Origin: Fidelibacterota bacterium
GTDB lineage: Bacteria; Fidelibacterota; UBA2242
Assembly: GCA_016783665.1 (NCBI GenBank)
Contig: JADHWC010000001.1
Span: forward strand, 10,596 to 74,595
Direction: 5' to 3'
DNA: 64,000 nucleotides
The notes beneath the pieces are model-generated. The model was not told the DNA's origin and made no database searches. It saw only the letters and a list, made by a program, of their open reading frames with translations. Below are positions 26,813 to 60,469 of this stretch, one piece after another; the first letter of the stretch is position 1, and every line of letters begins with the position of its first letter. A program made the position numbers and the translations under genes.

Positions 26813-26827
26813 TAAGGATATAAAGAT

Positions 26828-28270: not shown

Positions 28271-28416
28271 TTCTCAATTGTTGTGTAGTACTCTATCCAA
28301 AAAAGTTTATAAAATGATAAGCCGGAGTTATTATTTTAATAACGAAATCTGTTGATATCAAACACCAGCTTAATACTTCCCCCAATAAAGCAATCCGTGT
28401 AGAATTAATTTTTGCT

Positions 28417-28431
28417 TGGCTTACTTTTTGT
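28417..28431 (+). promoter_or_regulatory. Candidate sigma-54 (-24/-12) promoter TGGC-N7-TTGT upstream of symporter gene
   Basis: TTGGCTTACTTTTTGT has the GG and the -12 TTG at correct sigma-54 spacing, though TTGT replaces the consensus TTGC. About 45 nt upstream of the 28475 start and adjacent to the sigma-54 activator gene. Confidence 0.25.
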
Positions 28432-28474
28432 CTATAAGTGTTCTGATGGTGTTTTCAAGTATAAATAGAGGAAT

Positions 28475-32671: not shown

Positions 32672-32687
32672 TTTGTGGGAGTTTAAA

Positions 32688-34928: not shown

Positions 34929-34966
34929 ATTCTTATAAACAAAAATGACGAGGATTTTGGGAGAAT

Positions 34967-38628: not shown

Positions 38629-38808
38629 ATGGCGGATATATTCATCAAATTAAAAGTATATGGTTTGGCTTGGTTTTTGTTATTTATTACTGTGATGAGC
38701 ACTATCACATATAAAATTTACAAAACAAATTGCATTATAACTGTTGGTTGGAATCCGGGTGTTTTTGCCGGTTTCAATCCATTATATCGAGAAATAATAA
38801 CAAATTAA
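38629..38808 (+). CDS. Possible 59-codon small membrane protein (not in ORF track, below length cut-off)
   Basis: AAGGAGG Shine-Dalgarno 13 nt upstream of the ATG. Encodes MADIFIKLKVYGLAWFLLFITVMSTITYKIYK... with one predicted TM helix. The stop overlaps the AAGGAGG RBS of the next gene. No homology recognised. Confidence 0.2.
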   Translation: MADIFIKLKVYGLAWFLLFITVMSTITYKIYKTNCIITVGWNPGVFAGFNPLYREIITN

Positions 38809-38819
38809 AGGAGGCGAAA

Positions 38820-41360
38820 GTGAAGAAACAGTTGCTAATGATTGCGGTATTAGTACTTGCCGTCGGTATTAGTTACGGACAAGTTATCAATACCTTTGAT
38901 GTGGAGCCTGATACGACATTTTGGGCATTTTTTATGGGTGATAATGCCAGCGCCGATTCCAGCGCTGTGGATCATTCCATTGTTACCGATCCGGTTTATG
39001 AAGGCGCCGGGGCTATGAAATTAGAGTATAGCGCCCACAACTCTGAATCATGGGGCGGATTCAGTAAAATTGAACACTGGCATCCGGATTCCAATGCCAC
39101 TTATGATTTTACCGGATATGATTCCATCTCTTTCTGGTATTACAATGCAGTCCCTCAGTCAGCGGCAGGGAAAGTACATTTGAGATTTAATCTGCATGAT
39201 GTCAGCAATTCGGAAGAGGGCAACAAAACTTACGATGTGAACCAGGTCGAGTATTATTATTCCTTTCATTACATCCTTGATAATGCGCCTGGTTGGAATG
39301 AGATCAAAATGCCCCTGGTCGGAAATGACTCCTGGGATGGTAATGGTTTCAATCTGACTGGTTGGGCGGGAATTACCGGAAATGCCCTGCTGGATAAGGA
39401 TAAGATCAAAGGCTTTTCAGTTGAATTTTCAATCAGTGGTGGTGGAGATGGAGATCGGTCTTACGGAACAATTATTTTGGATCATCTGATATTAAAGGGT
39501 GTTGCTAAAATTGACCTGGTGTTCTTCAACGGTATGAATATTCCCGGAAGCGTCGGACTTTGGAATGGCTGGGGCGGCGGCAGCTATGAAATTGCCGAAG
39601 GTATGGGAGATGTTGAAGGAACCAACGCTTTGCTATGGAACACACCTCCGAATGACTGGGCAGTATGGGATGGTCTGGTTTGGTCTTTTGCCGAACCCAA
39701 AAACATGGCTCCCTCCTGGCATTCGGACAGCCTAACCTTTAAGATCAAAGCTGATACCGGTCTTGACTCTCTGAAGCTGGTCATCAGTGATGACGATATG
39801 GACGGTGAGGGTTCTGATCTGGAATATGAGGCTTTCTATATGTTGCATGAGGGCGAAGTCGGATATGACGGTACCTGGAAGACCGTAACACTGGCACTGG
39901 AAGATTTCGATCGGAATGGCGGCGGCTGGAACGCATCAACCAGTTCTATGCAATATGATACACTTATGGATTCCAGCCGAGTTAAGAATTTTAAAATTCT
40001 GATCGGAAGTGTTAATGCAGTCGGCAAAGTGGTCTATCTGGATGATATTTGGACCGGCACTCCAGTGTTTGATTGGGTTGGCACTGAAGAAGTACAAGGT
40101 GTTGATGCAGTTCAGTCCACTGAATTTTACAACCTTGTCATCTGGCAGGATAATGTCGGAGAATCGGGTGAATCTTATAATGTATACGCTAGTCGGCAGC
40201 CGATAACAGACGTTATGGATACTAACGTGGAAATGATAGCTAAGGGAGTTCTTGAAGGAACCCAGAATGCTATCCATTATATCTATTATCCTCTCGAAGA
40301 TAATGAAATGACTTATTATTATGCCGTTGTTTGTATTGATGCATCCGGTAATGACGGTCCCGCCGGTGTTTCCGGAGCAATTGTCAATACCGCCAAAGGT
40401 ATTCCAACTATTTCACTGGATGTTCCAGCCGGTTTTGCGGTGGATGGCGTTTTTACTGAGTGGTGGGACAGTGATATTAAACCCTGGGTATTGAAACCTG
40501 AAACCGATAACGTTGCAGTTGGTACAATAAATGATAGTCTGGATTTGATGGCAACGGTTTACCTCGCTATTGATGATGACTATCTGTACGTAGCCGCCGA
40601 CGTTATTGATGATGTCTATAATTTTGGCGCTGGTGAATGGTGGAACCAGGACGCCTTTGAGTTTTTCATCGGACTTTATAATTCAAGGGGTTCAAAACAT
40701 ACCAGCAATAAGAGAGGATCGGAACCGGATTATAAACTACAATTTCATGAAAACGGAATTATCAATGAATATGTAGGCAATACTATCTGGACTGTTGATG
40801 ATGATAATTATCATCTGGAGAATTTTAGCGGAGTGGATTATGTCATTGAAGCTAAAATACCGTTAGATTCAATTGCAGGTCCTGACGATGATCGTTTTCA
40901 TCCGGTTCGCGGTATGCGGATACCGATTGAACTGTATTTTCATGACAATGATGGGGCATGGGACGGAAACCTGGCATGGTCGCCGTTTAATACGGATCTG
41001 GCCTGGCAATCACCGACCCAGTGGAGTCATACCTGGATCGGCGACACCATGGACGTCGTTGGCACTTCAATCGATCTTACCGATTCCAGAATAATTAAAT
41101 CCTATAGGTTAGAACAGAACTATCCGAATCCGTTCAATCCCACAACCCGGATCGAATACACAATTCCTCATGGTGGTCAAGTGTCTTTACAGGTATTCAA
41201 TATGCTTGGTCAGAAAGTTGCTGATTTGGTTAATGAATATCAAAGAGCAGGGAAATACAATATCGCCTGGAATGCATCGGATGTTCCTTCCGGCGTCTAT
41301 TTCTATAGGATTCAATCCGGAGTATTTAATCAAACTAAAAAGATGTTGCTTGTGAAATAA
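38820..41360 (+). CDS. Secreted CBM9-like / beta-sandwich multidomain protein with T9SS C-terminal sorting domain
   Basis: GTG start at 38820 preceded by AAGGAGG, followed by signal peptide KKQLLMIAVLVLAVGISYGQ. The track ORF start at 38730 lacks a signal peptide. CBM9-like segment (LYVAADVIDDVYNFGAGEWWNQDAFEFFIG). T9SS CTD (LEQNYPNPFNPTTRIEYTIP...GVYFYRIQSG...KKMLLVK). Confidence 0.6.
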   Translation: MKKQLLMIAVLVLAVGISYGQVINTFDVEPDTTFWAFFMGDNASADSSAVDHSIVTDPVYEGAGAMKLEYSAHNSESWGGFSKIEHWHPDSNATYDFTGYDSISFWYYNAVPQSAAGKVHLRFNLHDVSNSEEGNKTYDVNQVEYYYSFHYILDNAPGWNEIKMPLVGNDSWDGNGFNLTGWAGITGNALLDKDKIKGFSVEFSISGGGDGDRSYGTIILDHLILKGVAKIDLVFFNGMNIPGSVGLWNGWGGGSYEIAEGMGDVEGTNALLWNTPPNDWAVWDGLVWSFAEPKNMAPSWHSDSLTFKIKADTGLDSLKLVISDDDMDGEGSDLEYEAFYMLHEGEVGYDGTWKTVTLALEDFDRNGGGWNASTSSMQYDTLMDSSRVKNFKILIGSVNAVGKVVYLDDIWTGTPVFDWVGTEEVQGVDAVQSTEFYNLVIWQDNVGESGESYNVYASRQPITDVMDTNVEMIAKGVLEGTQNAIHYIYYPLEDNEMTYYYAVVCIDASGNDGPAGVSGAIVNTAKGIPTISLDVPAGFAVDGVFTEWWDSDIKPWVLKPETDNVAVGTINDSLDLMATVYLAIDDDYLYVAADVIDDVYNFGAGEWWNQDAFEFFIGLYNSRGSKHTSNKRGSEPDYKLQFHENGIINEYVGNTIWTVDDDNYHLENFSGVDYVIEAKIPLDSIAGPDDDRFHPVRGMRIPIELYFHDNDGAWDGNLAWSPFNTDLAWQSPTQWSHTWIGDTMDVVGTSIDLTDSRIIKSYRLEQNYPNPFNPTTRIEYTIPHGGQVSLQVFNMLGQKVADLVNEYQRAGKYNIAWNASDVPSGVYFYRIQSGVFNQTKKMLLVK

Positions 41361-41375: not shown

Positions 41376-41414
41376 GATGGGGTATGGATCTAACGAACCA
41401 TACCCCATCTTTTC
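41376..41414 (+). terminator. Rho-independent terminator (12-bp perfect stem GATGGGGTATGG / CCATACCCCATC, 10-nt loop, TTTTC tail)
   Basis: Hairpin directly visible 16 nt after the stop at 41360. Confidence 0.6.
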
Positions 41415-41518: not shown

Positions 41519-44263
41519 ATGGGTAGTTTTAAAAATAAAAATATATTAGCAGGATTTTTAATCCTGTTTGTCATTTTAGTTGCTATTCCGACTTTTGGTC
41601 AAACAACAGGTAAAATTTCCGGAAAAGTGTTTGATCAAAAAACCGGTGATCCGCTACCGGGAACTAACGTAATTGTTGAGGGGACCTCTTACGGCGCAGC
41701 AGCGGACGAGAGCGGTGATTTCTATATCATTAATCTCAGTCCGGGTATCTATACAGTCAAAGTCCAGATGATCGGATATAAACCAATAATTGTTCAAAAC
41801 CTTCGGGTTTCCATTAACCGCACGGAATATTTGGAAATTAAAATGGAATCAACCGTTATTGAAGGAGAGACAGTTGTTGTTACGGCACGAAAAATATCGG
41901 TTCGCAAAGATCAGACCAGTACCGTAAAAAATGTATCAAGTGATGAAATCGAGATGTTGCCTATCGAAAGTATTTCCGATGTTGTATCCATGCAGGCGGG
42001 GGTAGTAAAAGGACATTTTAGAGGAGGGCGCCAGACGGAAGTTTCGTATATGATTGATGGAATTCCCGTGGATGAAGGTTTTGGCGGAGAAGGACGCTCG
42101 GTTGATCTTGAGCCGGAGACTATTCAGGATCTTGAGGTTATTACAGGCACTTTTAATGCTGAATACGGCAAAGCCATGAGCGGTATTGTTAATGTAGTCA
42201 CAAAAAAAGGAAGCAACGAGTTTCACGGATCGGCTTCCGCCGCACTGGCCAATTATTTTACGCGCAATACAGATATTTTTAGCGGACTCAAATCATCGGA
42301 AATAACCCGGAATCAGGATTATAAAATCAATTTAAACGGTCCGATTTTAAAAAATAAACTATATTTCCTGATGAACTACCGCTATCAGGATAATAAAAAC
42401 CATCTAAACGGAATAAGACGTTTTAACGTTGATGACTTCAGCTATTTTGTGGCTGATGACCTCGCAATGTGGTATTCGGAATATAATGGAGACAGCGCCT
42501 ACGTGCCTATGAATCGCAATATCAATGAATCTTTTATGGGTAAATTATCTACTGATTTGTTTAGAAATTTTAAAATATCAGCGATGTATACATTAAATAA
42601 AGACGAATGGCATCAATATGATCATATGTATAAATACGATCCCGATGGACGCGCCATTCCTCAAAGATTATCAAAAATGTATGCCTTTAATATTAATCAC
42701 ATGTTATCAAATTCACTCTTTTATGAATTGAAACTTTCGTACGTGGATAATTATTACGGTAATTATGTTTTTGAAAATCCGCTCGATTCGGGCTATGTGC
42801 ATGATGCGTACAGTCAGAGTGATGGACCGGGATTTTTTACCGGAGGACAGGATAAGTTCCATACAGAGCGAACGATGATTGATAAAAACGCCAAGTTTGA
42901 CGTCACCTGGCAAATGAATAAACATCACAGTTTTAAAACCGGATTTCATTATACCGGGTATATTATAGATGGTAAAGTGATGGAAATTCGTAATAAATAT
43001 GCCGATACTGAAGAAGAGGGGCTCTTTGAAATCCGTTTTATAAACGGTAAACCCAAAATTATATATCCTTATTATGAGCCGATTGTTTTACATGACACAA
43101 CGATTTATTCGGATATTATCTATGTCGAGCCAAAGGAGTATGCGGCATATTTTCAAGATAAAATGGAATTCGATAATATGGTCATTAATTTGGGAATCCG
43201 ATATGATTATTTTGATCCCAATAAAAGATATCCCTCTCAGTGGCGAAACCCGGCCAACCAGATGAGATTCCCTGGTAATCCCGAGAAGATGTCGAACTAT
43301 GTCTATGCTAAACCCAAAACCCAGATCAGTCCGCGTTTTGGATTATCTTACCAGTTGGGCAATGCGGCGGTTTTGCATTTTAGTTACGGTCATTTTTTCC
43401 AGATGCCGCCCGGATATGCATTATATTCTGGTAATTCTTACCGAATTTCACCGACCGACTATGTTACAATTCTTGGAAACCCCACAATTAATGCTCAAAA
43501 AACCGTTACCTACGAAATTGGACTCTGGCAGGAACTTGTGAGTGATATGGACCTAGACGTAGCGCTTTTTTACAGGGATATTTATGATCTCCTTAGTACA
43601 AAGATAGTGAGTACCTATAATCAAACCGAATATGGTCTTTATACAAATAAGGATTATGGAAACGCCAGGGGGCTTGAAATAAAATATAAGTGGTACTATC
43701 ATAACTTCTCGTTAAATCTGAATTATACCTTACAATATACGCGCGGGAATGCCGATAATCCGCAACAGACTTTTAACCGCGCCGGCAATAGTATGGATCC
43801 GATCAGCCAGATGATTCCAATGTCCTGGGATCAAAGGCATACGTTGAATGTTACAGCCGGATATAATACCGCCAAATATGGCGCGACATTGACCGGTTAT
43901 TACAATTCAGGTACGCCCTATACATGGTCGCCGGTGGGGAACAGTATTTTGTTCAGGGTTAATTTAACGCCGAATAATTCCTGGCAACCGGAACAATATA
44001 ATTTTGATTTTAACGGATATTACAATTTGAATATTTCTAAAAAGTTTAAGACAAAATTAACTCTGACGGTTTATAATTTATTCGATCGCCTGAATGAGAA
44101 CTGGGTCAATAATCAGACCGGTCGAGCCTATACTGCAATCGTCAGAGATACGGATATTGCGAGTCATAGAAGCGATTTCAATGATTTCTATGACATAATA
44201 CACAATCCGGGTATGTATGCAGCGCCACGCTTAGTCAAGATTGGATTGGGAATAGATTTTTAA
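41519..44263 (+). CDS. TonB-dependent outer-membrane receptor with N-terminal carboxypeptidase-regulatory-like (CarbopepD_reg) domain
   Basis: 914 aa. Signal peptide. CarbopepD_reg beta-sandwich (GKISGKVFDQKTGDPLPGTNVIVEGTSYGAAADESGDFYI). Plug domain (TVVVTARK...IQDLEVITGTFNAEYG). Long beta-barrel ending in a terminal aromatic residue (...GLGIDF). Confidence 0.75.
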   Translation: MGSFKNKNILAGFLILFVILVAIPTFGQTTGKISGKVFDQKTGDPLPGTNVIVEGTSYGAAADESGDFYIINLSPGIYTVKVQMIGYKPIIVQNLRVSINRTEYLEIKMESTVIEGETVVVTARKISVRKDQTSTVKNVSSDEIEMLPIESISDVVSMQAGVVKGHFRGGRQTEVSYMIDGIPVDEGFGGEGRSVDLEPETIQDLEVITGTFNAEYGKAMSGIVNVVTKKGSNEFHGSASAALANYFTRNTDIFSGLKSSEITRNQDYKINLNGPILKNKLYFLMNYRYQDNKNHLNGIRRFNVDDFSYFVADDLAMWYSEYNGDSAYVPMNRNINESFMGKLSTDLFRNFKISAMYTLNKDEWHQYDHMYKYDPDGRAIPQRLSKMYAFNINHMLSNSLFYELKLSYVDNYYGNYVFENPLDSGYVHDAYSQSDGPGFFTGGQDKFHTERTMIDKNAKFDVTWQMNKHHSFKTGFHYTGYIIDGKVMEIRNKYADTEEEGLFEIRFINGKPKIIYPYYEPIVLHDTTIYSDIIYVEPKEYAAYFQDKMEFDNMVINLGIRYDYFDPNKRYPSQWRNPANQMRFPGNPEKMSNYVYAKPKTQISPRFGLSYQLGNAAVLHFSYGHFFQMPPGYALYSGNSYRISPTDYVTILGNPTINAQKTVTYEIGLWQELVSDMDLDVALFYRDIYDLLSTKIVSTYNQTEYGLYTNKDYGNARGLEIKYKWYYHNFSLNLNYTLQYTRGNADNPQQTFNRAGNSMDPISQMIPMSWDQRHTLNVTAGYNTAKYGATLTGYYNSGTPYTWSPVGNSILFRVNLTPNNSWQPEQYNFDFNGYYNLNISKKFKTKLTLTVYNLFDRLNENWVNNQTGRAYTAIVRDTDIASHRSDFNDFYDIIHNPGMYAAPRLVKIGLGIDF

Positions 44264-44319
44264 GAATGTCCAAAAAGTGGGATGGAGATCAAATGATCAC
44301 ATTAGGAGGTCAGTCATCA

Positions 44320-47300
44320 ATGAAGAAAATGTCTAAAATATTCCTGTTTATACTTGCTTGTCTGCTATTGAGCAGTATTATATATGGTCAGGGTAAACTT
44401 TATGAAGGTCCCGATGACCCGGCTGCAGATCCGGCGGCTATTCGCGAAGGATATATGACCGGCAACCGCGTGCTTTTATATTTTCGGAATACAACTCAGC
44501 TGTCCGATTGGCCGAAAGTGGAAGTATCCAAGTGGCCGAATACCTATGAAGGCACTAAAATGGTTGATGGTATCGGACTCTTGATCGGCGCACAGGTTTT
44601 TATTACTCAGGATACGGTGCCCGTAACTGATCCGACGCAGCGAATTTTATTGAACGCTCAGCATAAGCTGGACACCCTGTATTTTCTACAGACCCATTAT
44701 CGTGAAGAGATGGATCGCGATCCGACTGGGCAGATTGAATGGGGACTATATCCGGTTTTTGGGTATTTTAATGAAAATAGTGAGTACCCTGCTATGAGCA
44801 ATTTACCAAACTCATGGCCGACCGCTGGCTGGCCGGCTTCGGGTGACCAGTTGCAATGGCAAGGGGAATGGGATGGCAGATTTGGGCGCGGTGTGATCTA
44901 TGCCGATCTGGAAACCTATTTTGTAGCCAACGATGCCCAGGATCAGGAGTATTTAGGGCCTGAAGATATAGTAAAATATTATCCCCGCCCGGAACGTAAA
45001 ATCGGGGATAAGCGCCCGTCGGTTACAGTTCAATATGGAAAACCCTGGGGTGGGATTGGTATTCGCGTCGAGCAGCGTGGTTTTCAATGGAATAATCCTC
45101 AGGCGCGGGATGCGATTTTCTGGGAATACAATATTGCCAATATCTCGGATTACGATCTTCCGGAAATGGCTTTTGGATATTGGGTGGATAATGCTATCGG
45201 TGACAATGTCGCCGGCGCCGGTGATGATGATGAACTGGGCTTCTTTGACAGGAAAATCGATTTGGCATATTCCTGGGATATTGACGGCATTGGTCAGGGT
45301 GGTTATCCGACGGGAATAATGGGATTTGCCTATCTGGAAAGTCCGGGACTTGCTTATGATGAGATTGATAATGATGAAGATGGATTAGTTGATGAAAAGC
45401 GGGATAACCCTGCCGGAAATATAATTGGACCGACAGTTGGTATTGCCGTTCTATCTGATTTTCTGGAATTTTATCGTTTAACCGAAGAGGATCTACGCGA
45501 TCATTACGAAGGCGATGAAGATCAGGATTGGCAAGATGGTGAAGACCTGAACGGGAATGGGATTTATGATGTCGGCGAGGATGCCGGCGATGATGTCGGG
45601 CTGGACGGCGTCGGTCCATCGGAATTGAATTATACCGGTCCCGATCCCGGTGAATGCAATCATATGCCGGATTATACCGAGGATGGCTGTGAGCCTAATT
45701 TTGCCGCTACCGATGTCAGTGAATCGGATATGGTGGGCTTGACCTCTTTTCAGTTGTTTCCGATTCAGCCGCACCGACCTCCTTATACCAAGTGGTTCCG
45801 CAATGATAAATCCATGTGGGAGGTCGTCGGCTCGGATACACTGATTGAGTATCTTGGCAATATCTCTAATCTTGTGGAAACCTTTGCATCCGGACCATTT
45901 CCGCTTTATCAGGGGCGCACCGAGCGTATTTCAATGTCGGAGTTACATTCTTTTGATCCGCTTGAAGGGCTGAGTTCCGATGAATACTCTGCACCGGCGT
46001 TGTTTGAATTAAAGCGCATCGTGCAGGTGATTTATGAAAAGGATTACCGTTTTGCCCAGCCGCCGAAAATGCCTACCCTGACGGCTACAGCCGGCGACGG
46101 GAAAGTGATCTTAACCTGGGATGATATTGCCGATACGAAAACACGGGATCCCTTTGTAGGAAATGTAAACGATTTTGAGGGCTATAAACTATTCCGTGCT
46201 ACAGACAAAAAAATGTCTGACGCCGAAGTGATTACTGACGGTTACGGTACGCCTATGTTTAAGAAGCCGATTTTTCAGTGTGATATTAAAGACGACCGCA
46301 CCGGTTTTACGGATTTTGGGCTGGTGAATGGCATGGGTTATAACCTGGGTACTGATTCCGGAATTAGACATTATTTTATTGATACAAACGTCCAGAATGG
46401 GCGGACTTATTATTATGCAATCGTAGCCTATGATTACGGCGCTCCACATATCGGGCCCGGCATTTCACCTTCCGAAAATAATATCATTATTGAATTAGAC
46501 GAGGCGGAAGAAATCAGAAATACAACGAAAAACGTCCAAATTGTGACGCCCCATCAACGGGCGGCAGGTTATGTGCCAGAAGATATTCAAATGGATTTAA
46601 ACGATGATATTATCGGAACGGGAACAGTTGTTCCGGAAATTCTGGCAAAAAACAGTCTGAAACCGGGACACTTATATAAAGTTAGCTTTGGCTTGGATAC
46701 TCTTGGCGTTATTGACAAATATGATCATGGAGTTTATTATACCAATAATAGTATAAATGTTTTTGATGCAACAGATTCTGTCGTCATTTACAAGGAAAAT
46801 CCGGATAGGTTTCCCGGAACGAATCTCGTATATGACGATACTCTCGATAACTGGTATATCAATACTCTCAATGTGATCAATACCGATGTGTTCGACGGTT
46901 TACGGTTGAATATTCAAATATCAGTAAGAACAGCCACCTTTGATTATGGAAATTCCGGCTGGATTGTCGGAAGCTCGCCAATCAATGTCACTCCTACAAA
47001 ACGGGAGTCCAAATTTTTCTCCTGGGATTACGATATCATTTTCAGTGATGAAGTCAAATATACAGGGCAGGGAAGCGCCTCACGAATTCGAGATGTCAAC
47101 GATACTCAGATTCGACGGGATTTGCTGACGACGGAAGACTTCAATTTCTACGTAGTCAATAAAACGTTTACTGATTCGGTGGAAGTTCTTGATATGGTTG
47201 TGCATGATCTGGATAAAAACAGTCAGTTTGATATATTAACCGATAAAATCTATGTTGGGCCGCTTAACTCAGATGGTAAATGGGCCGGCGCCGTATTTGC

Positions 47301-47775
47301 CATTGATTTTATCGGAACTTTCGGAGATAGTACCCTCCTTCCTCAACCCGGAGACGTTTATCATGTAACTTTTAACCGACCTTTCTTTAAAACAGACTCA
47401 ATTGCGTTTACCGTGGCGACTTACGATTCTCTGGATAAACAAGACCTTAAATATACCATGAAAGATATTAAAGTTGTCCCCAATCCCTATGTGGCAACTA
47501 ATGCCATGGAACCATCGGTTGCAAACTGGTTTTTAAATCAGCGCCGGCGCTTATTGTTTACCAATTTACCGGCTCAATGCACGATTAAAATATTTACCGT
47601 CAGTGGTGTTTTAGTGGACAAAATTGATGTAAATAATAATTCCGACGACGGTATCGCGCACTGGGATATGCTGACCAGTGAAAATCTTGAGATCGCCGCG
47701 GGAATGTATATATATCACGTGCAGTCCAAGTTGACTAACGATGAGAAGGTTGGCAAATTCGCCGTAATAAAATAG
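44320..47775 (+). CDS. Large secreted calcium-binding (Asp-rich, thrombospondin-type-3/dockerin-like repeat) protein with divergent T9SS C-terminal sorting domain
   Basis: Start moved to ATG 44320 (AGGAGG RBS, signal peptide MKKMSKIFLFILACLLLSSIIYGQ). Asp-rich loops (DNDEDGLVDE, DEDQDWQDGEDLNGNGIYDVGEDAGDDVGLDG). C-terminal ~100 aa (VVPNPYV...CTIKIFTVSGVLV...IAHWDMLTSENLEIAAGMYIYHVQ...KFAVIK) parallels the CTD pattern NPF / beta-strands / G-Y-Y / terminal K. Confidence 0.6.
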   Translation: MKKMSKIFLFILACLLLSSIIYGQGKLYEGPDDPAADPAAIREGYMTGNRVLLYFRNTTQLSDWPKVEVSKWPNTYEGTKMVDGIGLLIGAQVFITQDTVPVTDPTQRILLNAQHKLDTLYFLQTHYREEMDRDPTGQIEWGLYPVFGYFNENSEYPAMSNLPNSWPTAGWPASGDQLQWQGEWDGRFGRGVIYADLETYFVANDAQDQEYLGPEDIVKYYPRPERKIGDKRPSVTVQYGKPWGGIGIRVEQRGFQWNNPQARDAIFWEYNIANISDYDLPEMAFGYWVDNAIGDNVAGAGDDDELGFFDRKIDLAYSWDIDGIGQGGYPTGIMGFAYLESPGLAYDEIDNDEDGLVDEKRDNPAGNIIGPTVGIAVLSDFLEFYRLTEEDLRDHYEGDEDQDWQDGEDLNGNGIYDVGEDAGDDVGLDGVGPSELNYTGPDPGECNHMPDYTEDGCEPNFAATDVSESDMVGLTSFQLFPIQPHRPPYTKWFRNDKSMWEVVGSDTLIEYLGNISNLVETFASGPFPLYQGRTERISMSELHSFDPLEGLSSDEYSAPALFELKRIVQVIYEKDYRFAQPPKMPTLTATAGDGKVILTWDDIADTKTRDPFVGNVNDFEGYKLFRATDKKMSDAEVITDGYGTPMFKKPIFQCDIKDDRTGFTDFGLVNGMGYNLGTDSGIRHYFIDTNVQNGRTYYYAIVAYDYGAPHIGPGISPSENNIIIELDEAEEIRNTTKNVQIVTPHQRAAGYVPEDIQMDLNDDIIGTGTVVPEILAKNSLKPGHLYKVSFGLDTLGVIDKYDHGVYYTNNSINVFDATDSVVIYKENPDRFPGTNLVYDDTLDNWYINTLNVINTDVFDGLRLNIQISVRTATFDYGNSGWIVGSSPINVTPTKRESKFFSWDYDIIFSDEVKYTGQGSASRIRDVNDTQIRRDLLTTEDFNFYVVNKTFTDSVEVLDMVVHDLDKNSQFDILTDKIYVGPLNSDGKWAGAVFAIDFIGTFGDSTLLPQPGDVYHVTFNRPFFKTDSIAFTVATYDSLDKQDLKYTMKDIKVVPNPYVATNAMEPSVANWFLNQRRRLLFTNLPAQCTIKIFTVSGVLVDKIDVNNNSDDGIAHWDMLTSENLEIAAGMYIYHVQSKLTNDEKVGKFAVIK

Positions 47776-47820
47776 AAGATATGGGTATCTATGATGACTG
47801 TGGGAATGAAAGGTGATAAA

Positions 47821-48891
47821 ATGAGATTTGGAAATTTATTTAAAAGTCTAATAATATTGGCGCTGTTGACTTATATAGTAAGTCCGCAATTATATGCACA
47901 AAAACCTTACCGGGTAGGTACGACAGCAGCAAACTTTCTAGAAATTGGCGTCGGCAGCGATGGAAATGCGATGGGAGAAGCCTATGTCAGTATGGTTGGT
48001 AAATTATCCTCAATCTACTGGAATCCTGCCGGTCTGGCGTTTATGCGACAGAACGAAGCCCTGTTTATGTATCAACCCTGGATCGTAGATATTAACTCGT
48101 CCAGCGCTGCCTTTGCATATCTGCTTCCCTCTGTCGGTACGCTGGCATTTGGATTCAATCACGTGGGCTATGGCGATATGGAAGTTACCACTTTAGAATC
48201 GCAGGATGGAACGGGTGAATTTTTCAACGCTAATGATTATAATTTTACCGTTACATATTCTAGGAAACTGGCTCAGTGGTTTGCTTTTGGAGCTTCGGCT
48301 AAATATATCAGCTCGCAAATCTGGCATACCAACGCCAGCGCCATGGCAATCGACATCGGCGTTATTGTAAATTCCGGTTTTTTCTCGGTCACCGGGAAAA
48401 AGAATGACGGCATGCGGATTGGAATGAGCATCTCAAATTATGGCACGAAAATGCAATATAACGGCATGGATTTGTTATTCCCAATTGATATTCTGCCCGA
48501 TGAAGCCGGGAATTACAGCGCGGTCAAGGGGCAATTTAAACCGCAAGAATGGGAACTGCCGTTGATTTTCCGGATCGGCGTATCGGTGCAGCCTATCGTT
48601 TTTAGAAATCAGCGCTTGACGCTTGCCGTCGATGCCTTACATCCAAACAACAATGCCGAATCGGTTAACGTAGGCGCCGAATATGAAATGACGATTCCCG
48701 GAACGGGCAGTTTTAGTCTGCGAGCGGGTTACAAATCGCTTTTTATGGAAGAAACTGAATTTGGAATGACTTTCGGTGGCGGACTGCTGTTACGGTTTAT
48801 GAATAATCTGGGGTTAAAGGTCGATTATGCATTTAAGCCGGTCGGAATCCTTGGAAATACACATTCATATACGCTGGGACTAATTTTTTAA
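47821..48891 (+). CDS. porV: PorV/LptO-like (FadL-fold) outer-membrane beta-barrel protein, T9SS-associated
   Basis: Start at ATG 47821 (signal peptide MRFGNLFKSLIILALLTYIVSPQLYAQ). Mature N-terminus GTTAANFLEIGVGSDGNAMGEAYVSMVGKLSSIYWNPAGLAFM matches the PorV/PorQ-family signature. Ends with aromatic-rich beta strands (...YTLGLIF). Confidence 0.6.
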   Translation: MRFGNLFKSLIILALLTYIVSPQLYAQKPYRVGTTAANFLEIGVGSDGNAMGEAYVSMVGKLSSIYWNPAGLAFMRQNEALFMYQPWIVDINSSSAAFAYLLPSVGTLAFGFNHVGYGDMEVTTLESQDGTGEFFNANDYNFTVTYSRKLAQWFAFGASAKYISSQIWHTNASAMAIDIGVIVNSGFFSVTGKKNDGMRIGMSISNYGTKMQYNGMDLLFPIDILPDEAGNYSAVKGQFKPQEWELPLIFRIGVSVQPIVFRNQRLTLAVDALHPNNNAESVNVGAEYEMTIPGTGSFSLRAGYKSLFMEETEFGMTFGGGLLLRFMNNLGLKVDYAFKPVGILGNTHSYTLGLIF

Positions 48892-48963
48892 CCGACCAAT
48901 CAAAAAATAAATTAACTAAATTTTGATATGATTGATTTAAGAATTATGCCCTTGAGGCACTTA

Positions 48964-48992
48964 CCCCCAATCCTGTTTTGGGGGTCTTTTTT
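48964..48992 (+). terminator. Rho-independent terminator (CCCCCAA...TTGGGGG stem, T7 tail)
   Basis: GC-rich hairpin ACCCCCAATCCTGTTTTGGGGGT followed by CTTTTTT, ~70 nt after the PorV-like stop. Confidence 0.55.
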
Positions 48993-49026
48993 AAAAGTTA
49001 ACCACTTTTTAGCAATTTGAGGATTT

Positions 49027-50553
49027 ATGAAATACGGATTGAGATTACCGCAATACTCTTTATTAATGTCTGTTTTTGGAGTAATACTGTTTTTCAGTTG
49101 TAGCGAGAAGGAAGATCAAATACCTGACGAAAAAATTCTTGCCAGAATCGGGAATAAAACTATCGCGGTCAATGAATTTATACGCCGGGCTGAACACACT
49201 ATCCGACCAGCTTATTGCAAACAGGATAATTATATTCATAAAAAGATCATTTTGAATTCCCTGATCGCGGAAAAACTTTTTGCGCTGGAAGCGGGCTTGG
49301 ATAATGAATTAGTTAAGAATGAAGAGTTCCGGAATTATATCCGGGGCAGGCAGGAACAGGCTATGCGCCAGTACTTTTACTACGACAGAGCCTATAATAA
49401 AGTCGAACCCGATACCGCCGAGATTAAAAGAGTTTATAAACTTGCCGGAAGAATCTACAGGATTCAGTATCTGCGTCTGCCCGATGAGAATTCCGTATCT
49501 GCCTTTATGAAACTTCATAGAGAGGGTGGAATACCGTTCGATTCATTGGCGATGGATATTTTAGGCGATTCAACCATACCGGAGCGTCAAATCAATTTTA
49601 ACGATGATCTGAGCAACGAGTTTTTCGATCTTTTTTATTCGAAGCCCCTGGAAAAGGATCAATTGATTGGTCCGGTTAAAAATGAAGATGACAGCTTTTT
49701 GATAATGAAAGTCGCCGGCTGGAAGACCCGGGTCGTCATTAGCGATAAAGAAATTAAACAACGGTGGAATGATGTCCGCGATAAATTAAAAAATATTGCA
49801 GCAAACCAGCTGTATAATCAACAAGTCTCCGAACTGATGAAAGGGAAAAGATTAAAATTTACCGAAGATACATTCTATCAACTTACGGATATTCTGGCGC
49901 CGCTATACATGAAAAACATACAGGATAAAAAAGAGGCATTCAACCAGAAGTTCTGGAAAAAAGAGGTGGAGGTTGATTTTGACACCACCTATGACCAGAG
50001 CATTGAATCACTTCGGCACAAACCGTTATTTACGCTGGATGGAATTGTGTGGACTGTCGCTGATTTTGAAAAAGCCTTACAGTCCCATCCGCTGGTTTTT
50101 CGCAAGCGTCAATTCAGCAGTAAGGAATTTCCCGAGCAATTTAAGTATGCCGTTGCGGACCTGGTTCGGGATATCCAGATCAACCGGGAAGCCTACAAGG
50201 TGGGTTATAATAATGTTCCCGTTGTTAAAAATTATGCCAACATGTGGCATGATGATCTGGTGTCTATGCACTGGCGAAATGAATACCTTAAACGAGCTGG
50301 GTTTCAGGGCAATTTCGGAGATAATTATATGGAAGCGATTGAAGATTATCTGAATCCTTATGTGGATAGTCTTCAACAAAAATATAGTGATCTTATAGAA
50401 ATTAACACCGATGCTTTTGAAAAAATTGATCTTACTAATATTGATATGTTTGCAATTCAGAGAAATGTGCCTTATCCGATTGTCAGTCCGAGTTTTCCCA
50501 TTTTAACAACGGATAATAAGTTGGATTATGGTAGAAAAATGATTATTGAATAA
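49027..50553 (+). CDS. Hypothetical lipoprotein (possible SurA-N-like chaperone region)
   Basis: 508 aa. Lipobox-like LFFSCS. ILARIGNKTIAVNEFIRRAE resembles SurA/PpiD N-terminal chaperone segments. No catalytic motif found. Confidence 0.4.
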   Translation: MKYGLRLPQYSLLMSVFGVILFFSCSEKEDQIPDEKILARIGNKTIAVNEFIRRAEHTIRPAYCKQDNYIHKKIILNSLIAEKLFALEAGLDNELVKNEEFRNYIRGRQEQAMRQYFYYDRAYNKVEPDTAEIKRVYKLAGRIYRIQYLRLPDENSVSAFMKLHREGGIPFDSLAMDILGDSTIPERQINFNDDLSNEFFDLFYSKPLEKDQLIGPVKNEDDSFLIMKVAGWKTRVVISDKEIKQRWNDVRDKLKNIAANQLYNQQVSELMKGKRLKFTEDTFYQLTDILAPLYMKNIQDKKEAFNQKFWKKEVEVDFDTTYDQSIESLRHKPLFTLDGIVWTVADFEKALQSHPLVFRKRQFSSKEFPEQFKYAVADLVRDIQINREAYKVGYNNVPVVKNYANMWHDDLVSMHWRNEYLKRAGFQGNFGDNYMEAIEDYLNPYVDSLQQKYSDLIEINTDAFEKIDLTNIDMFAIQRNVPYPIVSPSFPILTTDNKLDYGRKMIIE

Positions 50554-50582: not shown

Positions 50583-52379
50583 ATGAAGAAAATCACACTC
50601 CTGTTCTTTCTATTTTTATCTTTTGGAATGGGTAAAGAATTTAAAGGCGCCGAGCTGCGGACAAAAGACACATTTACCTACGGGCGTTTTGAGGTGAATT
50701 ATAAAGCATCCAAAGGCGCCGGACATACGTCAACTTTTTTCACCTATCACGAATTGGGTAGCGCAGGCATTGCCGATTGGAACGAACTGGATATTGAGAT
50801 AATAGGTCGATATACTGATGATATTCAGTTTAACGCCATTACTCCGGGACAAAGTAACCATGAACATCATCAGTGGTTGAGATTCGATCCCACGGTCGGC
50901 TTTCACACTTATGCATTTGAATGGACGCCTGAATATGTCGCCTGGTTTGTTGATGGCGAGGAGGTTTACCGTCAGACCGGTGAACATGTGGCTACCCTGG
51001 ATAAGGATCAAAAGATCATGATGAATATCTGGCCTCCGGCTTATGCATCTTGGGTAGGCGTTTTGGATAACCGCATGTTGCCGTTCTTTGCTTACTACGA
51101 TTGGGTGAGTTATGCGTCTCATTCTCCAGGAGCCGGGAATTCGGGAACCGGTAATAATTTCACCTTTCAGTGGCGTGACGATTTCGATGAATGGGATACG
51201 AATCGCTGGGCTAAAGCTTCACATACCTGGGATGGAAATAACAGCGACTTTGTACCTGATAATTGTGTGTTCCGGGACAGTAAAATGGTTCTCTGTTTAA
51301 CGGACGCCGACAATATCGGTTATGTTGACCACAATACACCGTTTATGCTTTGGGCGAGATACGATTCCGATACCGTTACCGTGATGTTTTCTGAAGAAAT
51401 AACTTTAGAAAGCGCTGAGAAAGTCTCCAATTACCGCATCACCGGGGTTACTATCACCCAGGCGTTATCACAACCGGATCACCGGTCGGTTAAATTAGCA
51501 GTTACCGGAATTGATCCGGAAAATACATACAGTGTTGTGGCGCTGGGAATAAAAGATATTTCGCCAACTCCAAATACATTAATGGGGCAATCCCTGAATA
51601 TCCAGATGCCGCCGAAGTGGAATTACCCTCTGAAAATCAATATTGGGGGTGATGCTTACAGTGAATGGCGGGGTGACCAGAATTGGTCTGATGATAGGGA
51701 TTATGGACAAATCGGTGGCGCTGACGGTCATTTTCCCGGACAATCGATTTCAGGAACAACGGATGATGTAATCTTCCAATCGGAGCAAAGGGGGCTCGTA
51801 AAATACCAGGTTCGGCTTCCCCGGGGGAGATATAATGTATCGCTGATGATGTCTGAAAATTATTTCAATGAATCCGGGAAACGGATTTTTGATATCAATG
51901 TTGAAGGAATCTATATCGCCCGGAATCTGGATTTGTATGCCGAAGTCGGCGCACATGCGGCATATACCATAGCCGTAAACGATATTGTTGTACAGGATGG
52001 GATTCTGGATATTCATTTTGGTAATATTATTGATTACAGCTTACTGAATGGACTGATTATCGAAGAGGTGCCGACGGCTGTGGATGATGGAAGTTCCACA
52101 ATTAGCGATGAATTTTACCTGGGGCAGAATTTCCCGAACCCCTTCAATCAAAGGACAACATTTCGTTTTAGAGTGCCACGGGATTCAAAAGCCTCGATAT
52201 CAATTTTTGATATGCGCGGCTCAAAAGTCGAATCTTTTTTGAATGAAAACCTTGCCGCCGGTAGCTATGTAAAGACCTGGAATGCCCCGGTTTCCAGCGG
52301 AATATATTTTTATAAACTTGATGTATCTTCACAAGGTAGAGTCTTTAGCGATATAAAGAAGATGGTATTACTTAAATAA
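50583..52379 (+). CDS. GH16 beta-glucanase (licheninase-like) with malectin-like CBM and T9SS C-terminal sorting domain
   Basis: GH16 catalytic motif ExDxxE as NELDIEIIG. Malectin-like segment (KINIGGDAYSEWRGDQNWSDDRDYGQIGGADGHF...RIFDINVEGIYIARNLDLYAEVG). CTD (LGQNFPNPFNQRTTFRF...GIYFYKLD...KKMVLLK). Confidence 0.8.
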   Translation: MKKITLLFFLFLSFGMGKEFKGAELRTKDTFTYGRFEVNYKASKGAGHTSTFFTYHELGSAGIADWNELDIEIIGRYTDDIQFNAITPGQSNHEHHQWLRFDPTVGFHTYAFEWTPEYVAWFVDGEEVYRQTGEHVATLDKDQKIMMNIWPPAYASWVGVLDNRMLPFFAYYDWVSYASHSPGAGNSGTGNNFTFQWRDDFDEWDTNRWAKASHTWDGNNSDFVPDNCVFRDSKMVLCLTDADNIGYVDHNTPFMLWARYDSDTVTVMFSEEITLESAEKVSNYRITGVTITQALSQPDHRSVKLAVTGIDPENTYSVVALGIKDISPTPNTLMGQSLNIQMPPKWNYPLKINIGGDAYSEWRGDQNWSDDRDYGQIGGADGHFPGQSISGTTDDVIFQSEQRGLVKYQVRLPRGRYNVSLMMSENYFNESGKRIFDINVEGIYIARNLDLYAEVGAHAAYTIAVNDIVVQDGILDIHFGNIIDYSLLNGLIIEEVPTAVDDGSSTISDEFYLGQNFPNPFNQRTTFRFRVPRDSKASISIFDMRGSKVESFLNENLAAGSYVKTWNAPVSSGIYFYKLDVSSQGRVFSDIKKMVLLK

Positions 52380-54611: not shown

Positions 54612-54626
54612 GGAGAAAATTAACCG

Positions 54627-55487: not shown

Positions 55488-55488
55488 A

Positions 55489-60394: not shown

Positions 60395-60415
60395 AATATT
60401 TCAATATTAGTGAAA

Positions 60416-60451
60416 AAAGACGTTATTCGCAATGCAACAAATAATGTCTTT
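60416..60451 (-). terminator. Hairpin (12-bp stem with one mismatch, AAAGACGTTATT / AATAATGTCTTT) with flanking A/T runs, likely terminator of the symporter gene
   Basis: Located 19 nt downstream (minus-strand sense) of the stop at 60470. T-run on the minus strand. Confidence 0.45.
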
Positions 60452-60469
60452 TTCGGTTTTCAATTCATT

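What the first reader, a model, noticed from the sequence alone, without database searches (positions are those of the whole stretch)
41519..48891. TonB-dependent receptor - giant Ca-binding T9SS cargo - PorV-like barrel encoded as a unit
A TBDT with a CarbopepD_reg N-domain is followed 2 nt later by an 1152-aa protein, then 45 nt later by a PorV/LptO-like FadL-fold barrel, and then a strong terminator. The giant protein is rich in Asp-loop calcium-binding repeats and ends in a recognisable but divergent T9SS sorting domain. PorV is the outer-membrane shuttle that hands T9SS cargo to the attachment complex. A cargo gene sandwiched between a TBDT and its own PorV-like partner suggests a dedicated surface-assembly module. 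It is possibly a SusC/SusD-like functional analogue in a non-Bacteroidia lineage, in which the large protein caps or feeds the TBDT.
Basis: partly seen in the sequence, partly recalled or inferred. Interest (0 to 1): 0.6.

Follow-up and report, generated by a model that had tools for sequence, protein, structure and literature searches.

The report
SusD-less glycan-uptake module using T9SS
A TonB-dependent outer-membrane transporter, a very conserved 1151-residue surface protein of unknown fold and its own PorV-type barrel are encoded together at the centre of a beta-glucan degradation locus, and the same trio recurs in Marinimicrobia, KSB1, Calditrichota, Zhuqueibacterota and Ignavibacteria, so it looks like an undescribed SusD-free way of building a sugar-capture machine.

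Summary
Three same-strand genes lie between two terminator-like hairpins. They encode a TonB-dependent transporter (41519-44263), an unannotated 1151-aa protein I call BIG (44320-47775) and a PorV/PorQ-family barrel (47821-48891). It is not an orthologue of PorV, PorQ or PorV2.

BIG has a signal peptide, two DxDxDG-type loops, an FN3 domain and a divergent type-A T9SS C-terminal domain (CTD; hhalign 93% to the locus's canonical CTDs).

Synteny is very strong. The order holds wherever flank allows in 80 species-level genomes. Both partners are present in 51 of 53 testable further loci, including 31-45% identical paralogues beside other CAZymes.

The unit is larger than reported. A CBM-CTD protein precedes it and a SurA-like lipoprotein usually follows. 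The window copy sits in a GH16/GH3/GH5 beta-glucan locus of a Marinimicrobia MAG.

Best reading, partly inferred: BIG is exported by the T9SS, held on its cognate PorV-like barrel through a retained CTD, and works with the transporter in glycan capture. It would be a functional analogue of SusD/SGBPs, not a homologue. I found no published description. The claimed 2-nt spacing is wrong; it is 56 nt.

The parts
38730..41360 (+). CBM9 + type-A T9SS CTD protein. This is the longest ORF; the true start is probably near the signal peptide MIAVLVLAVG, about 100 nt in. It is the conserved first gene of the module and a candidate surface glycan-binding protein.
   Evidence: Pfam CBM9_1 4.6e-13 and Por_Secre_tail 1.2e-10; TIGR04183 46 bits. 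Found just upstream of the transporter gene in most loci. Paralogous loci carry a CBM_4_9 or CBM9 + CTD protein in the same position. Its CTD is more conserved than the rest of the protein (55% vs 42%).
41376..41409 (+). Strong hairpin followed by UCUUUU between the CBM9 gene and the transporter gene; terminator-like.
   Evidence: RNA fold dG -23.9 kcal/mol, z -6.4, 0 of 200 shuffles as stable.
41519..44263 (+). TonB-dependent transporter with an N-terminal CarboxypepD_reg domain, a TonB box (ETVVVTA, aa 116-122), a plug and a barrel.
   Evidence: Pfam. SusC/RagA TIGR04056 scores only 64 bits against a cut-off of 368. NCBI names it TonB-dependent receptor, MBL7066264.1. Orthologues average 56% identity.
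44320..47775 (+). BIG: a 1151-aa secreted, all-beta, multidomain protein with no Pfam family. It is the best conserved protein of the locus.
   Evidence: No Pfam hit. More than 1476 homologues, the top 120 being 63-91% identical across phyla and all named 'hypothetical'. 5567 clusters at 50% identity with E<=1e-3. AF2 pLDDT 86.9, pTM 0.74. AGGAGG RBS.
45352..45744 (+). Asp-rich segment of BIG (aa 345-475) with two DxDxDG-type putative Ca2+ loops: DNDEDGLVDE at aa 350 and DLNGNGIYD at aa 409.
   Evidence: Regex and composition. D350, D352, D354 and G355 are invariant in 144 family members.
46072..46434 (+). FN3-like domain of BIG (aa about 585-705).
   Evidence: AF2 strand pattern. Fibronectin type III matches in Foldseek. 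NCBI names some orthologues 'fibronectin type III domain-containing'.
47467..47772 (+). Divergent type-A T9SS C-terminal domain of BIG (aa 1050-1151), with a conserved insertion of about 16 aa after PNPY.
   Evidence: TIGR04183 18.6 bits (cut-off 23) and PorZ C-terminus 7.7e-5. PorU CTD E 0.025. Hhalign against canonical CTDs 93%, E 3e-7. 71-73% identity among orthologues, against 23-31% for the enzyme CTDs.
47821..48891 (+). PorV/PorQ-family outer-membrane barrel, 356 aa, cognate to BIG.
   Evidence: NF033709 225.7 bits (cut-off 90). PorV, PorQ and PorV2 equivalogs all score below their cut-offs. PDB PorV 6h3i_F 1.8e-12. Immediately downstream of BIG in 61 of 69 testable further loci.
48963..48994 (+). 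Intrinsic-terminator-like hairpin plus T-run after the PorV-like gene.
   Evidence: One search lists it as the top terminator site. The fold gives dG -14.1 kcal/mol, not exceptional against shuffles (z -1.3).
49027..50553 (+). U508: a lipoprotein (LFFSC | SEKEDQ) of a SurA/PpiC-like family. It usually follows the PorV-like gene.
   Evidence: Lipobox read from the sequence and conserved as FxxSC. SurA_N in 6 of 14 and Rotamase in 4 of 14 family members; the window copy itself has no Pfam hit. Present in 65 of 80 genome loci.
50583..52379 (+). GH16 (BglS-like) + malectin + T9SS CTD: a secreted endo-beta-glucanase.
52410..57327 (+). GH3 (52410-54611), GH16 lipoprotein (54627-55487) and GH3 lipoprotein (55453-57327).
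   Evidence: lipoboxes read.
57358..59346 (+). GH5 + CBM6 + T9SS CTD.
59348..62041 (-). GH5 (59348-60394) and a sodium:solute symporter (60470-62041).
23964..30100 (+). Solute-binding protein, histidine kinase, sigma-54 response regulator and SSF symporter: the likely regulator and inner-membrane importer of the locus.
   Evidence: The same set is found upstream in L008, L030, L075, L077 and L085.
32637..38524 (+). GH3 lipoprotein (32637-34928) and a CotH + lamin-tail + CTD protein (34967-38524).
   Evidence: recurs in related loci.

Best explanation
The three genes are the outer-membrane core of a SusD-less, T9SS-dependent polysaccharide utilisation locus, here for beta-1,3 or mixed-linkage glucan (laminarin-type).

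Shown here:
- The trio is a TonB-dependent transporter, a secreted all-beta 1151-aa protein with a T9SS-type CTD, and a PorV/PorQ-family barrel.
- It is kept together across at least five phylum-level lineages, and across paralogues that sit beside different CAZymes.
- It is usually preceded by a CBM-CTD protein and followed by a SurA-like lipoprotein.

Inferred:
- BIG crosses the inner membrane by Sec and the outer membrane by the T9SS.
- Its unusually conserved CTD is not cleaved. It stays docked on the cognate PorV-like barrel, as the PorZ CTD does on PorQ and the PorU CTD on PorV. This tethers BIG at the surface next to the transporter.
- BIG, stiffened by Ca2+ loops, together with the CBM protein, captures glucan chains that the T9SS-secreted GH16 and GH5 enzymes cut. 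It then presents the oligosaccharides to the transporter.
- Lipoprotein GH3 and GH16 enzymes finish hydrolysis, and SSF symporters import the sugar.
- The SurA-like lipoprotein chaperones assembly of the complex.

BIG thus takes the functional place of SusD and the surface glycan-binding proteins without being homologous to them.
For: - Domain calls: transporter, PorV_fam 225.7 bits, PDB PorV hit.
- BIG CTD: hhalign 93%, with weak hits to the PorZ and PorU C-termini.
- The BIG CTD is 71% conserved among orthologues. The CTDs of the locus's enzymes are 23-31% conserved. This fits a retained, partner-binding CTD.
- Synteny: 80 genome loci, 5 distant paralogue loci, and a metagenome sample with 51 of 53 loci holding both partners.
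- CAZyme, regulator and importer content.
- Hairpins bracket the trio.
- Published precedent for retained CTDs on cognate PorV-like barrels: PMC10202324.
- The family-conserved part of BIG is the N-terminal region to FN3. Residues 760-1045 vary, as expected for a generic scaffold plus a substrate-specific part.
Against: - No physical interaction was modelled or measured.
- Distance-matrix covariation gave no specific CTD-to-PorV-like signal (partial correlation 0.09). The N-terminal half tracks the transporter and the variable region tracks PorV-like and U508, but phylogeny confounds this.
- The CTD scores below the curated TIGR04183 cut-off.
- CTD hits to PorZ and PorU are not discriminating, because canonical CTDs of the locus also hit PorU.
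- Two BIG homologues, L135 and L141, sit among GHs with no transporter or PorV-like gene within 8 kb.
- A terminator separates U508 from the trio.
- No carbohydrate-binding domain is recognisable in BIG. The fold of its N-terminal domain could not be matched, because only PDB Foldseek was available and TM-scores were below 0.16.
- The substrate is inferred from GH families only.
Confidence: 0.55

Rival explanations
1. BIG is an ordinary T9SS cargo whose CTD is cleaved by PorU. The protein is then released or attached to LPS. The adjacent PorV-like barrel is only a dedicated, transient shuttle from the SprA translocon, not an anchor. Any cooperation with the transporter is loose.
For: PorV is described as a shuttle for CTD cargo (PMC10202324). 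The BIG CTD is homologous to cleavable type-A CTDs. The covariation test gave no CTD-to-PorV-like signal.
Against: The BIG CTD is far better conserved (71%) than the CTDs of cleaved-type enzymes in the same loci (23-31%), and it carries a conserved insertion. A general PorV would suffice for shuttling, yet nearly every BIG paralogue keeps its own barrel.
Confidence: 0.2
2. The PorV-like barrel is primarily an accessory of the transporter or of barrel assembly, comparable to the FadL-like BamG that binds surface lipoproteins in the Bacteroidota BAM complex. Alternatively it is a diffusion channel for small products. BIG would then be tethered some other way.
For: FadL-fold barrels can act as structural partners that bind surface proteins through their loops (PMC12578637). 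A SurA/PPIase-like lipoprotein with acidic residues after the lipid Cys accompanies the module, reminiscent of BamJ and BamK. An order variant, transporter-PorV-BIG, occurs in 4 loci.
Against: The barrel scores as PorV/PorQ family far above the cut-off, and its best PDB match is PorV itself. It co-occurs with a CTD-bearing protein in nearly all loci.
Confidence: 0.12
3. The TonB-dependent protein works outward, like Myxococcus Oar, or is part of a dedicated assembly route for BIG. The trio would then be a surface-display device rather than an importer.
For: The domain layout, CarboxypepD_reg + Plug + OMP_b-brl_4, is the one I recall for Oar-type proteins, which I did not check here. BIG is the best conserved component.
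Against: The loci always carry periplasmic or lipoprotein exo-glycosidases, inner-membrane sugar importers and sugar-responsive regulators. No other outer-membrane import route is encoded. BIG already has a T9SS signal.
Confidence: 0.06
4. The adjacency has no functional meaning and reflects only inherited gene order among close relatives.
For: Many of the loci are orthologous and could share order by descent.
Against: The order is kept in paralogues only 31-45% identical, in loci with different CAZymes and regulators, and in several phyla.
Confidence: 0.02

Closest known systems
SusC/SusD (RagA/RagB) transporter-lid pairs and 'utilisomes' of Bacteroidota PULs
   Same: A TonB-dependent transporter with an N-terminal CarboxypepD_reg-type domain sits at the centre of a CAZyme locus. 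It is encoded next to a large surface protein, with surface endo-glycanases, periplasmic exo-glycosidases, an inner-membrane importer and a sensor or regulator.
   Different: The transporter fails the SusC/RagA model (64 bits against 368). The partner is not a lipoprotein and not the alpha-helical SusD fold. It is an all-beta Sec/T9SS protein. A PorV-family barrel and a SurA-like lipoprotein belong to the unit. No SusD is present in the window.
PorZ-PorQ and PorU-PorV pairs of the T9SS attachment complex (P. gingivalis)
   Same: A large CTD-bearing surface protein is paired with a PorV-family barrel. In the known pairs the CTD is retained and docks on the barrel (PMC10202324). The BIG C-terminus gives its best, though weak, sequence and structure hits to PorZ and PorU.
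   Different: BIG has no Peptidase_C25 domain and no PorZ beta-propeller match. The barrel is below the PorV and PorQ equivalog cut-offs. The pair is embedded in catabolic loci, occurs as many paralogues, and comes with a transporter. Retention of the CTD is not shown.
Type-B CTD cargo with cognate PorP/SprF-like barrels (e.g. SprB-SprF in Flavobacterium johnsoniae)
   Same: A cargo gene is followed by its own dedicated outer-membrane barrel gene, and many paralogous pairs exist (review PMC10202324).
   Different: The BIG CTD aligns with type-A CTDs. The barrel belongs to the PorV/PorQ family, not PorP/SprF. The context is nutrient uptake, not gliding adhesins.
Bacteroidota BAM complex accessory proteins (BamG FadL-like barrel; surface PPIase lipoproteins BamJ/BamK)
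   Same: A FadL-fold barrel holds a surface protein through its loops. SurA/PPIase-type lipoproteins carry acidic residues after the lipid Cys (PMC12578637). U508 begins C-SEKEDQ.
   Different: There is no BamA in the module. Homology of U508 to BamJ or BamK was not tested. The window's U508 has no detectable PPIase domain.

Membership tests
TonB-dependent transporter | Plug domain plus 22-strand barrel domain, with a TonB box N-terminal to the plug | tested here: met
   Plug 4.1e-10 and TonB_dep_Rec_b-barrel 7.3e-29. ETVVVTA at aa 116-122, read from the sequence.
SusC/RagA subfamily | Score at or above the curated cut-off of TIGR04056 (368 bits) | tested here: not met
   64 bits, covering only the N-terminal 230 residues.
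SusD/RagB | SusD-like Pfam domains, lipoprotein signal, alpha-helical TPR-like fold | tested here: not met
   BIG has no Pfam hit even at E<=10. It has an SPI-type signal whose Cys is not conserved. The AF2 model is almost all beta. No SusD was found among the window ORFs scanned.
PorV/PorQ family (NF033709) | Score at or above the curated cut-off (90 bits) over the full length | tested here: met
   225.7 bits, aa 44-364 on profile positions 1-324 of 326. Pfam PorV 42.2 bits against 27. PDB PorV 6h3i_F 1.8e-12.
PorV proper, PorQ proper, PorV2 (equivalogs NF033710, NF033711, NF052325) | Score at or above the equivalog cut-offs (250, 220, 325 bits) | tested here: not met
   95, 97.9 and 55.7 bits. 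It is a separate branch of the family.
   No Toluene_X hit for the window protein at E<=10. Only weak or faint Toluene_X marks appear on two homologues.
T9SS type-A C-terminal sorting domain | Match to TIGR04183 or PF18962 at the C-terminus, with the PNPF...G..V...W...G.Y.Y...K motif order | tested here: inconclusive
   TIGR04183 scores 18.6 bits, below the cut-off of 23, and PF18962 gives no hit. However, hhalign against 15 canonical CTDs gives 93%, E 3e-7. The motifs are visible with a 16-aa insertion. CHU_C hits occur in 2 of 18 paralogues. The top Foldseek hits are PorZ and PorU.
T9SS cargo (functional) | Secretion depends on the T9SS; CTD cleaved or retained | not testable with these tools
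   Needs proteomics or genetics. The window holds six other proteins with canonical CTDs, so the organism very probably has a T9SS.
Ca2+-binding DxDxDG / thrombospondin-type-3-like loops | DxDxDG motif with a downstream acidic ligand; metal binding | tested here: inconclusive
   Two motifs (aa 350 and 409) are invariant across 144 homologues. Binding itself was not tested.
SurA/PpiD-like chaperone (U508) | SurA_N domain with or without a PpiC rotamase domain | tested here: inconclusive
   The window protein has no Pfam hit. SurA_N_2 or SurA_N_3 is found in 6 of 14 and Rotamase in 4 of 14 aligned family members.
Polysaccharide utilisation locus (PULDB sense) | Adjacent susC-susD pair with CAZymes | tested here: not met
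   There is no SusC-family and no SusD gene. CAZymes, regulator and importers are present. It is PUL-like by logic, not by definition.

The most novel reading that the evidence does not exclude
The five genes, CBM-CTD protein, transporter, BIG, PorV-like barrel and SurA-like lipoprotein, encode a stable outer-membrane 'utilisome' of a new architecture. In it, T9SS cargo are permanently mounted on a dedicated PorV-family barrel beside a TonB-dependent transporter. This would be the general glycan-import machine of SusD-lacking lineages related to the Bacteroidota: Marinimicrobia/SAR406, KSB1, Calditrichota, Zhuqueibacterota and Ignavibacteria. BIG's unmatched N-terminal domain would be the structural equivalent of the SusD lid.
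Probability: 0.35. Interest if true: 0.85.

Novelty: new variant of a known kind. Interest (0 to 1): 0.7.

Why it matters
PUL prediction rests on SusC/SusD pairs, as in PULDB, so phyla without SusD look poor in glycan-uptake systems. Here a different conserved module marks CAZyme loci in Marinimicrobia (SAR406), KSB1, Calditrichota, Zhuqueibacterota and Ignavibacteria. These groups are abundant in the ocean interior, sediments and hot springs.

The module gives three things:
1. A genomic marker for finding such loci. BIG has about 5,500 clusters at 50% identity and no Pfam family.
2. A concrete hypothesis for how these bacteria take up laminarin-type glucans, a major marine carbon pool.
3. A possible new use of the T9SS and PorV family, namely mounting permanent parts of a nutrient importer.

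Caldithrix abyssi DSM 13497 is cultured and carries the same locus, so the idea can be tested.

Tried and rejected
- **First AF2 run.** With 25 close orthologues (A1) it failed for residues 1-580 (pLDDT 52.8). A 144-sequence alignment including paralogues (A3) fixed this.
- **PDB sequence and profile searches for BIG.** Nothing with A1. With A3, only the PorU CTD at E 0.025.
- **Family scans of BIG.** Pfam at E<=10 and NCBIfam gave nothing beyond CTD-level hits.
- **Mirror-tree test.** Partial correlations between BIG regions and PorV-like, transporter and U508 gave no specific CTD-to-PorV-like signal. I treat it as inconclusive.
- **Housekeeping T9SS hypothesis.** The 63-91% cross-phylum identity first suggested a PorU-like or PorZ-like component. 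I rejected this because the gene always lies in substrate-specific CAZyme loci and has many paralogues.
- **Literature.** Eight full-text searches found no paper describing the module. The Caldithrix genome paper does not mention it. The library is incomplete, so this is absence of evidence only.
- **Look-up of Calab_3088 (P0112).** It failed. The near-identical P0109 worked.

Full report
**1. What is in the sequence**

Three + strand ORFs occupy 41519-48891.

The first (914 aa) has a signal peptide, a CarboxypepD_reg domain, a Plug and a TonB-dependent barrel. ETVVVTA at aa 116-122 is a textbook TonB box, read directly from the sequence. It is not a SusC: TIGR04056 gives 64 bits against a cut-off of 368.

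The second ORF can be read from 44266 (1169 aa), but the start is almost certainly ATG 44320.
- AGGAGG lies 8 nt upstream.
- Orthologues align from that Met.
- The 1151-aa product is in the public protein collection while the 1169-aa one is not.

The third ORF most likely starts at 47821 (356 aa, as NCBI annotates it), 45 nt after the stop of the second.

A classical hairpin plus T-run follows at 48963-48994. A much stronger hairpin (dG -23.9 kcal/mol, z -6.4) lies between the preceding gene and the transporter gene at 41376-41409. The trio is thus bracketed by terminator-like structures.

**2. The third gene**

It belongs to the PorV/PorQ family. NCBIfam NF033709 gives 225.7 bits (cut-off 90) over its whole length. 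Pfam PorV gives 8.9e-11. The only meaningful PDB sequence match is Flavobacterium johnsoniae PorV, 6h3i_F, at E 1.8e-12. No Toluene_X/FadL hit appears even at E<=10.

The protein does fall below the equivalog cut-offs for PorV (95 against 250), PorQ (97.9 against 220) and PorV2 (55.7 against 325). It is a separate branch of the family.

**3. The middle protein (BIG)**

It has no Pfam family and no PDB relative by sequence. It has an SPI-type signal peptide.

One Asp-rich segment (aa 345-475) holds two DxDxDG-type loops, DNDEDGLVDE and DLNGNGIYD. Their Asp and Gly residues are invariant in 144 homologues. Calcium binding is plausible but untested. "Rich in repeats" overstates it.

AF2 with a shallow alignment failed. 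With 144 sequences including paralogues it gave pLDDT 86.9 and pTM 0.74. The model is an almost all-beta chain with these parts:
- a large N-terminal domain (about aa 25-580) with the Asp-rich insertion;
- an FN3 domain (about aa 585-705);
- further beta-sandwiches (aa 720-1045);
- a C-terminal beta-sandwich (aa 1050-1151).

Whole-chain Foldseek against the PDB puts PorZ (5m11, E 8e-7) first and PorU (6za2) fifth. TM-scores are about 0.1, so the resemblance is at the level of the CTD and Ig-like domains only. Other fold libraries were unavailable. The N-terminal fold is unassigned.

**4. The C-terminal domain**

TIGR04183 scores 18.6 bits, below its cut-off of 23. The best NCBIfam hit is the C-terminus of PorZ at 7.7e-5. 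A family profile hits the PorU CTD at E 0.025.

These hits do not discriminate, because canonical CTDs in the window also hit PorU. A profile-profile comparison of 15 BIG C-termini with 15 canonical CTDs from the same loci gives 93% probability, E 3e-7. By eye the motif order is kept (VVPNPY ... CTIKIFTVSG.LV ... W ... AAGMYIYHV ... KFAVIK), with a conserved insertion of about 16 residues after PNPY.

I accept it as a divergent type-A CTD.

Among orthologues this CTD is more conserved than the rest of BIG (71% against 63%). The CTDs of the GH16, GH5 and CotH proteins of the same loci are much less conserved than their catalytic parts (23-31% against 42-47%). The CBM9 protein's CTD behaves like that of BIG (55% against 42%).

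**5. Surroundings**

The trio sits in a one-directional cluster:

| Coordinates | Strand | Content |
|---|---|---|
| 23964-28270 | + | solute-binding protein, histidine kinase, sigma-54 regulator |
| 28475-30100 | + | SSF symporter |
| 32637-34928 | + | GH3 lipoprotein |
| 34967-38524 | + | CotH + lamin-tail + CTD protein |
| 38730-41360 | + | CBM9 + CTD protein |
| 41519-48891 | + | the trio |
| 49027-50553 | + | 508-aa lipoprotein (LFFSC-SEKEDQ) of a SurA/PpiC-like family |
| 50583-52379 | + | BglS-like GH16 + malectin + CTD |
| 52410-54611 | + | GH3 |
| 54627-55487 | + | GH16 lipoprotein |
| 55453-57327 | + | GH3 lipoprotein |
| 57358-59346 | + | GH5 + CBM6 + CTD |
| 59348-60394 | - | GH5 |
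| 60470-62041 | - | second SSF symporter |

This is the logic of a polysaccharide utilisation locus for beta-1,3 or mixed-linkage glucan, with the endo-enzymes exported by the T9SS. No SusD is present.

A GH16 from Marinimicrobia whose closest database relatives, in Marinimicrobia, KSB1 and Calditrichaeota, are about 66% identical to it has been characterised as a laminarinase (PMC12296878). Its relation to the window's GH16 was not tested.

**6. Origin**

Exact matches identify the window as a Candidatus Marinimicrobia (Neomarinimicrobiota) MAG. NCBI calls the genes "TonB-dependent receptor" (MBL7066264.1), "PorV/PorQ family protein" (MBL7066266.1) and "hypothetical protein" (MBL7066267.1, the U508 lipoprotein). 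BIG's cluster-mates in that look-up are all named "hypothetical protein".

**7. Comparative evidence**

BIG has more than 1476 homologues in a word-indexed search. The top 120 are full-length, 63-91% identical and all named "hypothetical". They come from Marinimicrobia, KSB1, Calditrichota (including Caldithrix abyssi Calab_3088), Zhuqueibacterota and others.

An exhaustive profile search finds 5567 clusters at 50% identity with E<=1e-3, of which 595 have E<=1e-30. The common core runs from the Asp-rich segment through FN3.

A scan of one genome per species found 295 genomes, and 80 loci were fetched. In these the order CBM9-CTD, transporter, BIG, PorV-like, U508 is kept wherever the flank allows. 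The transporter and the PorV-like gene were each detected in 75 of 80 loci and U508 in 65 of 80. GH16, GH3, GH5 and SSF genes lie nearby.

BIG is the best conserved protein of the locus:

| Protein | Mean identity among orthologues |
|---|---|
| BIG | 64% |
| Transporter | 56% |
| PorV-like | 56% |
| Enzymes | 40-45% |
| U508 | 40% |

Paralogues only 31-45% identical (A2) show the same arrangement beside other functions: GH94-like, GH130 and MGH1-like enzymes, GH81, ABC sugar importers, and LacI, GntR or two-component regulators.

A metagenome sample seeded with these paralogues was scored with HMMs built from the window's orthologues. Counts below cover 85 further loci: the 5 paralogue loci plus 80 metagenome loci.
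- Transporter immediately upstream of BIG: 53 of 61 testable loci.
- PorV-like immediately downstream of BIG: 61 of 69 testable loci.
- Both present in the fetched flanks: 51 of 53 loci.

Four loci have the order transporter, PorV-like, BIG. Two (L135, L141) have BIG among GH2, GH65 and GH94-like genes with no transporter or PorV-like gene within 8 kb.

**8. Mechanism**

Shown:
- the components;
- their tight and ancient linkage;
- the CAZyme context;
- CTD homology;
- the unusual conservation of the CTD.

Established elsewhere: PorU and PorZ keep their CTDs and stay bound to PorV and PorQ. Cognate PorV-like barrels have been proposed to protect CTDs from cleavage (PMC10202324).

Inferred: BIG is exported by the T9SS and remains docked by its CTD on the cognate barrel next to the transporter. 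There, with the CBM protein, it captures glucan fragments and hands them over. The SurA-like lipoprotein assists assembly.

BIG would be a functional, non-homologous counterpart of SusD and the surface glycan-binding proteins.

A crude covariation analysis did not single out a CTD-to-PorV-like link. The N-terminal half of BIG tracks the transporter best (rho 0.67). The variable region, aa 760-1060, tracks PorV-like and U508 (rho 0.61 and 0.60). Phylogeny confounds all of this.

Rivals are a transient shuttle with a cleaved CTD, a BamG-like structural barrel (PMC12578637), and an Oar-like outward-working transporter. None is excluded.

**9. Novelty and verdict**

The parts are known kinds: a TonB-dependent transporter, a T9SS cargo, a PorV-family barrel and a PUL-like locus. 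Their fixed combination, the BIG family itself and the SusD-free architecture were not found in eight full-text searches or in the Caldithrix genome paper. That is absence of evidence in an incomplete library.

I rate it a new variant of a known kind, with interest 0.7. Caldithrix abyssi DSM 13497 is cultured and has the same locus, which offers a way to do so.

Noticed in passing
window 6773-19812 (- strand): A type I restriction-modification system: HsdM at 8114-9559, an HsdS fused to a GIY-YIG nuclease domain at 13762-15501, and HsdR at 17050-19812. It is interrupted by a KAP-family P-loop NTPase (11529-13772), two unannotated ORFs of about 268 aa (9562-11174), an HTH + Peptidase_M78 (IrrE-like) protein (15521-16669) and a Fic/DOC protein (6773-7912). 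GC drops to 0.33 at 12001-14000. It looks like a defence island.
   Followed up: partly
window 20794-23694 and 34967-38524: Two large CotH kinase-like proteins with lamin-tail domains and T9SS CTDs flank or sit inside the beta-glucan locus. The second recurs in related loci of other genomes (CotH2 in L009, L015, L038, L046, L050, L054 and others). A role for CotH in a glycan locus is unexplained.
   Followed up: partly
window 31191-32671: A VTC-domain protein plus a DUF4956 membrane protein, preceded by an HlyD-like protein (30122-31189), lie inside the locus between the SSF symporter and GH3. L075 has homologues of the HlyD-like and VTC proteins at its far end, and L042 of the HlyD-like protein. 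The function here is unknown.
   Followed up: no
window 23964-28270: A periplasmic solute-binding protein, a histidine kinase and a sigma-54-dependent response regulator precede the locus. The set is conserved upstream of the module in L008, L030, L075, L077 and L085. Other paralogous loci use LacI, GntR or Y_Y_Y hybrid sensors instead.
   Followed up: partly
L084 19691-23384; L146 1-12412: Some contigs carry two modules in tandem. In L084 a second transporter gene is followed by a 1113-aa ORF. L146 has two sets of transporter, BIG and PorV-like genes. This suggests expansion by duplication.
   Followed up: no
L135 7977-11249; L141 7977-11234: Here BIG homologues have no transporter or PorV-like gene within 8 kb. 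They are embedded among GH94/MGH1-like, GH2 and GH65 genes, Laminin_G_3 + PKD + CTD proteins and a MalK-type ABC ATPase.
   Followed up: partly
window 54627-55487 / 55453-57327: The GH16 lipoprotein ORF and the following GH3 ORF overlap by 35 nt as listed (TTG start). The GH3 probably starts later, at the Met before its lipobox (LFSVTC). A characterised Marinimicrobia GH16 laminarinase, Jermuk-LamM (PMC12296878), may be a close relative of the 286-aa GH16. This was not compared.
   Followed up: no
window 62357-63856 (- strand) and 5033-6502: A 499-aa protein has only a T9SS CTD recognisable, and a 489-aa protein has a weak Big_1 hit. Both are otherwise unannotated.
   Followed up: no
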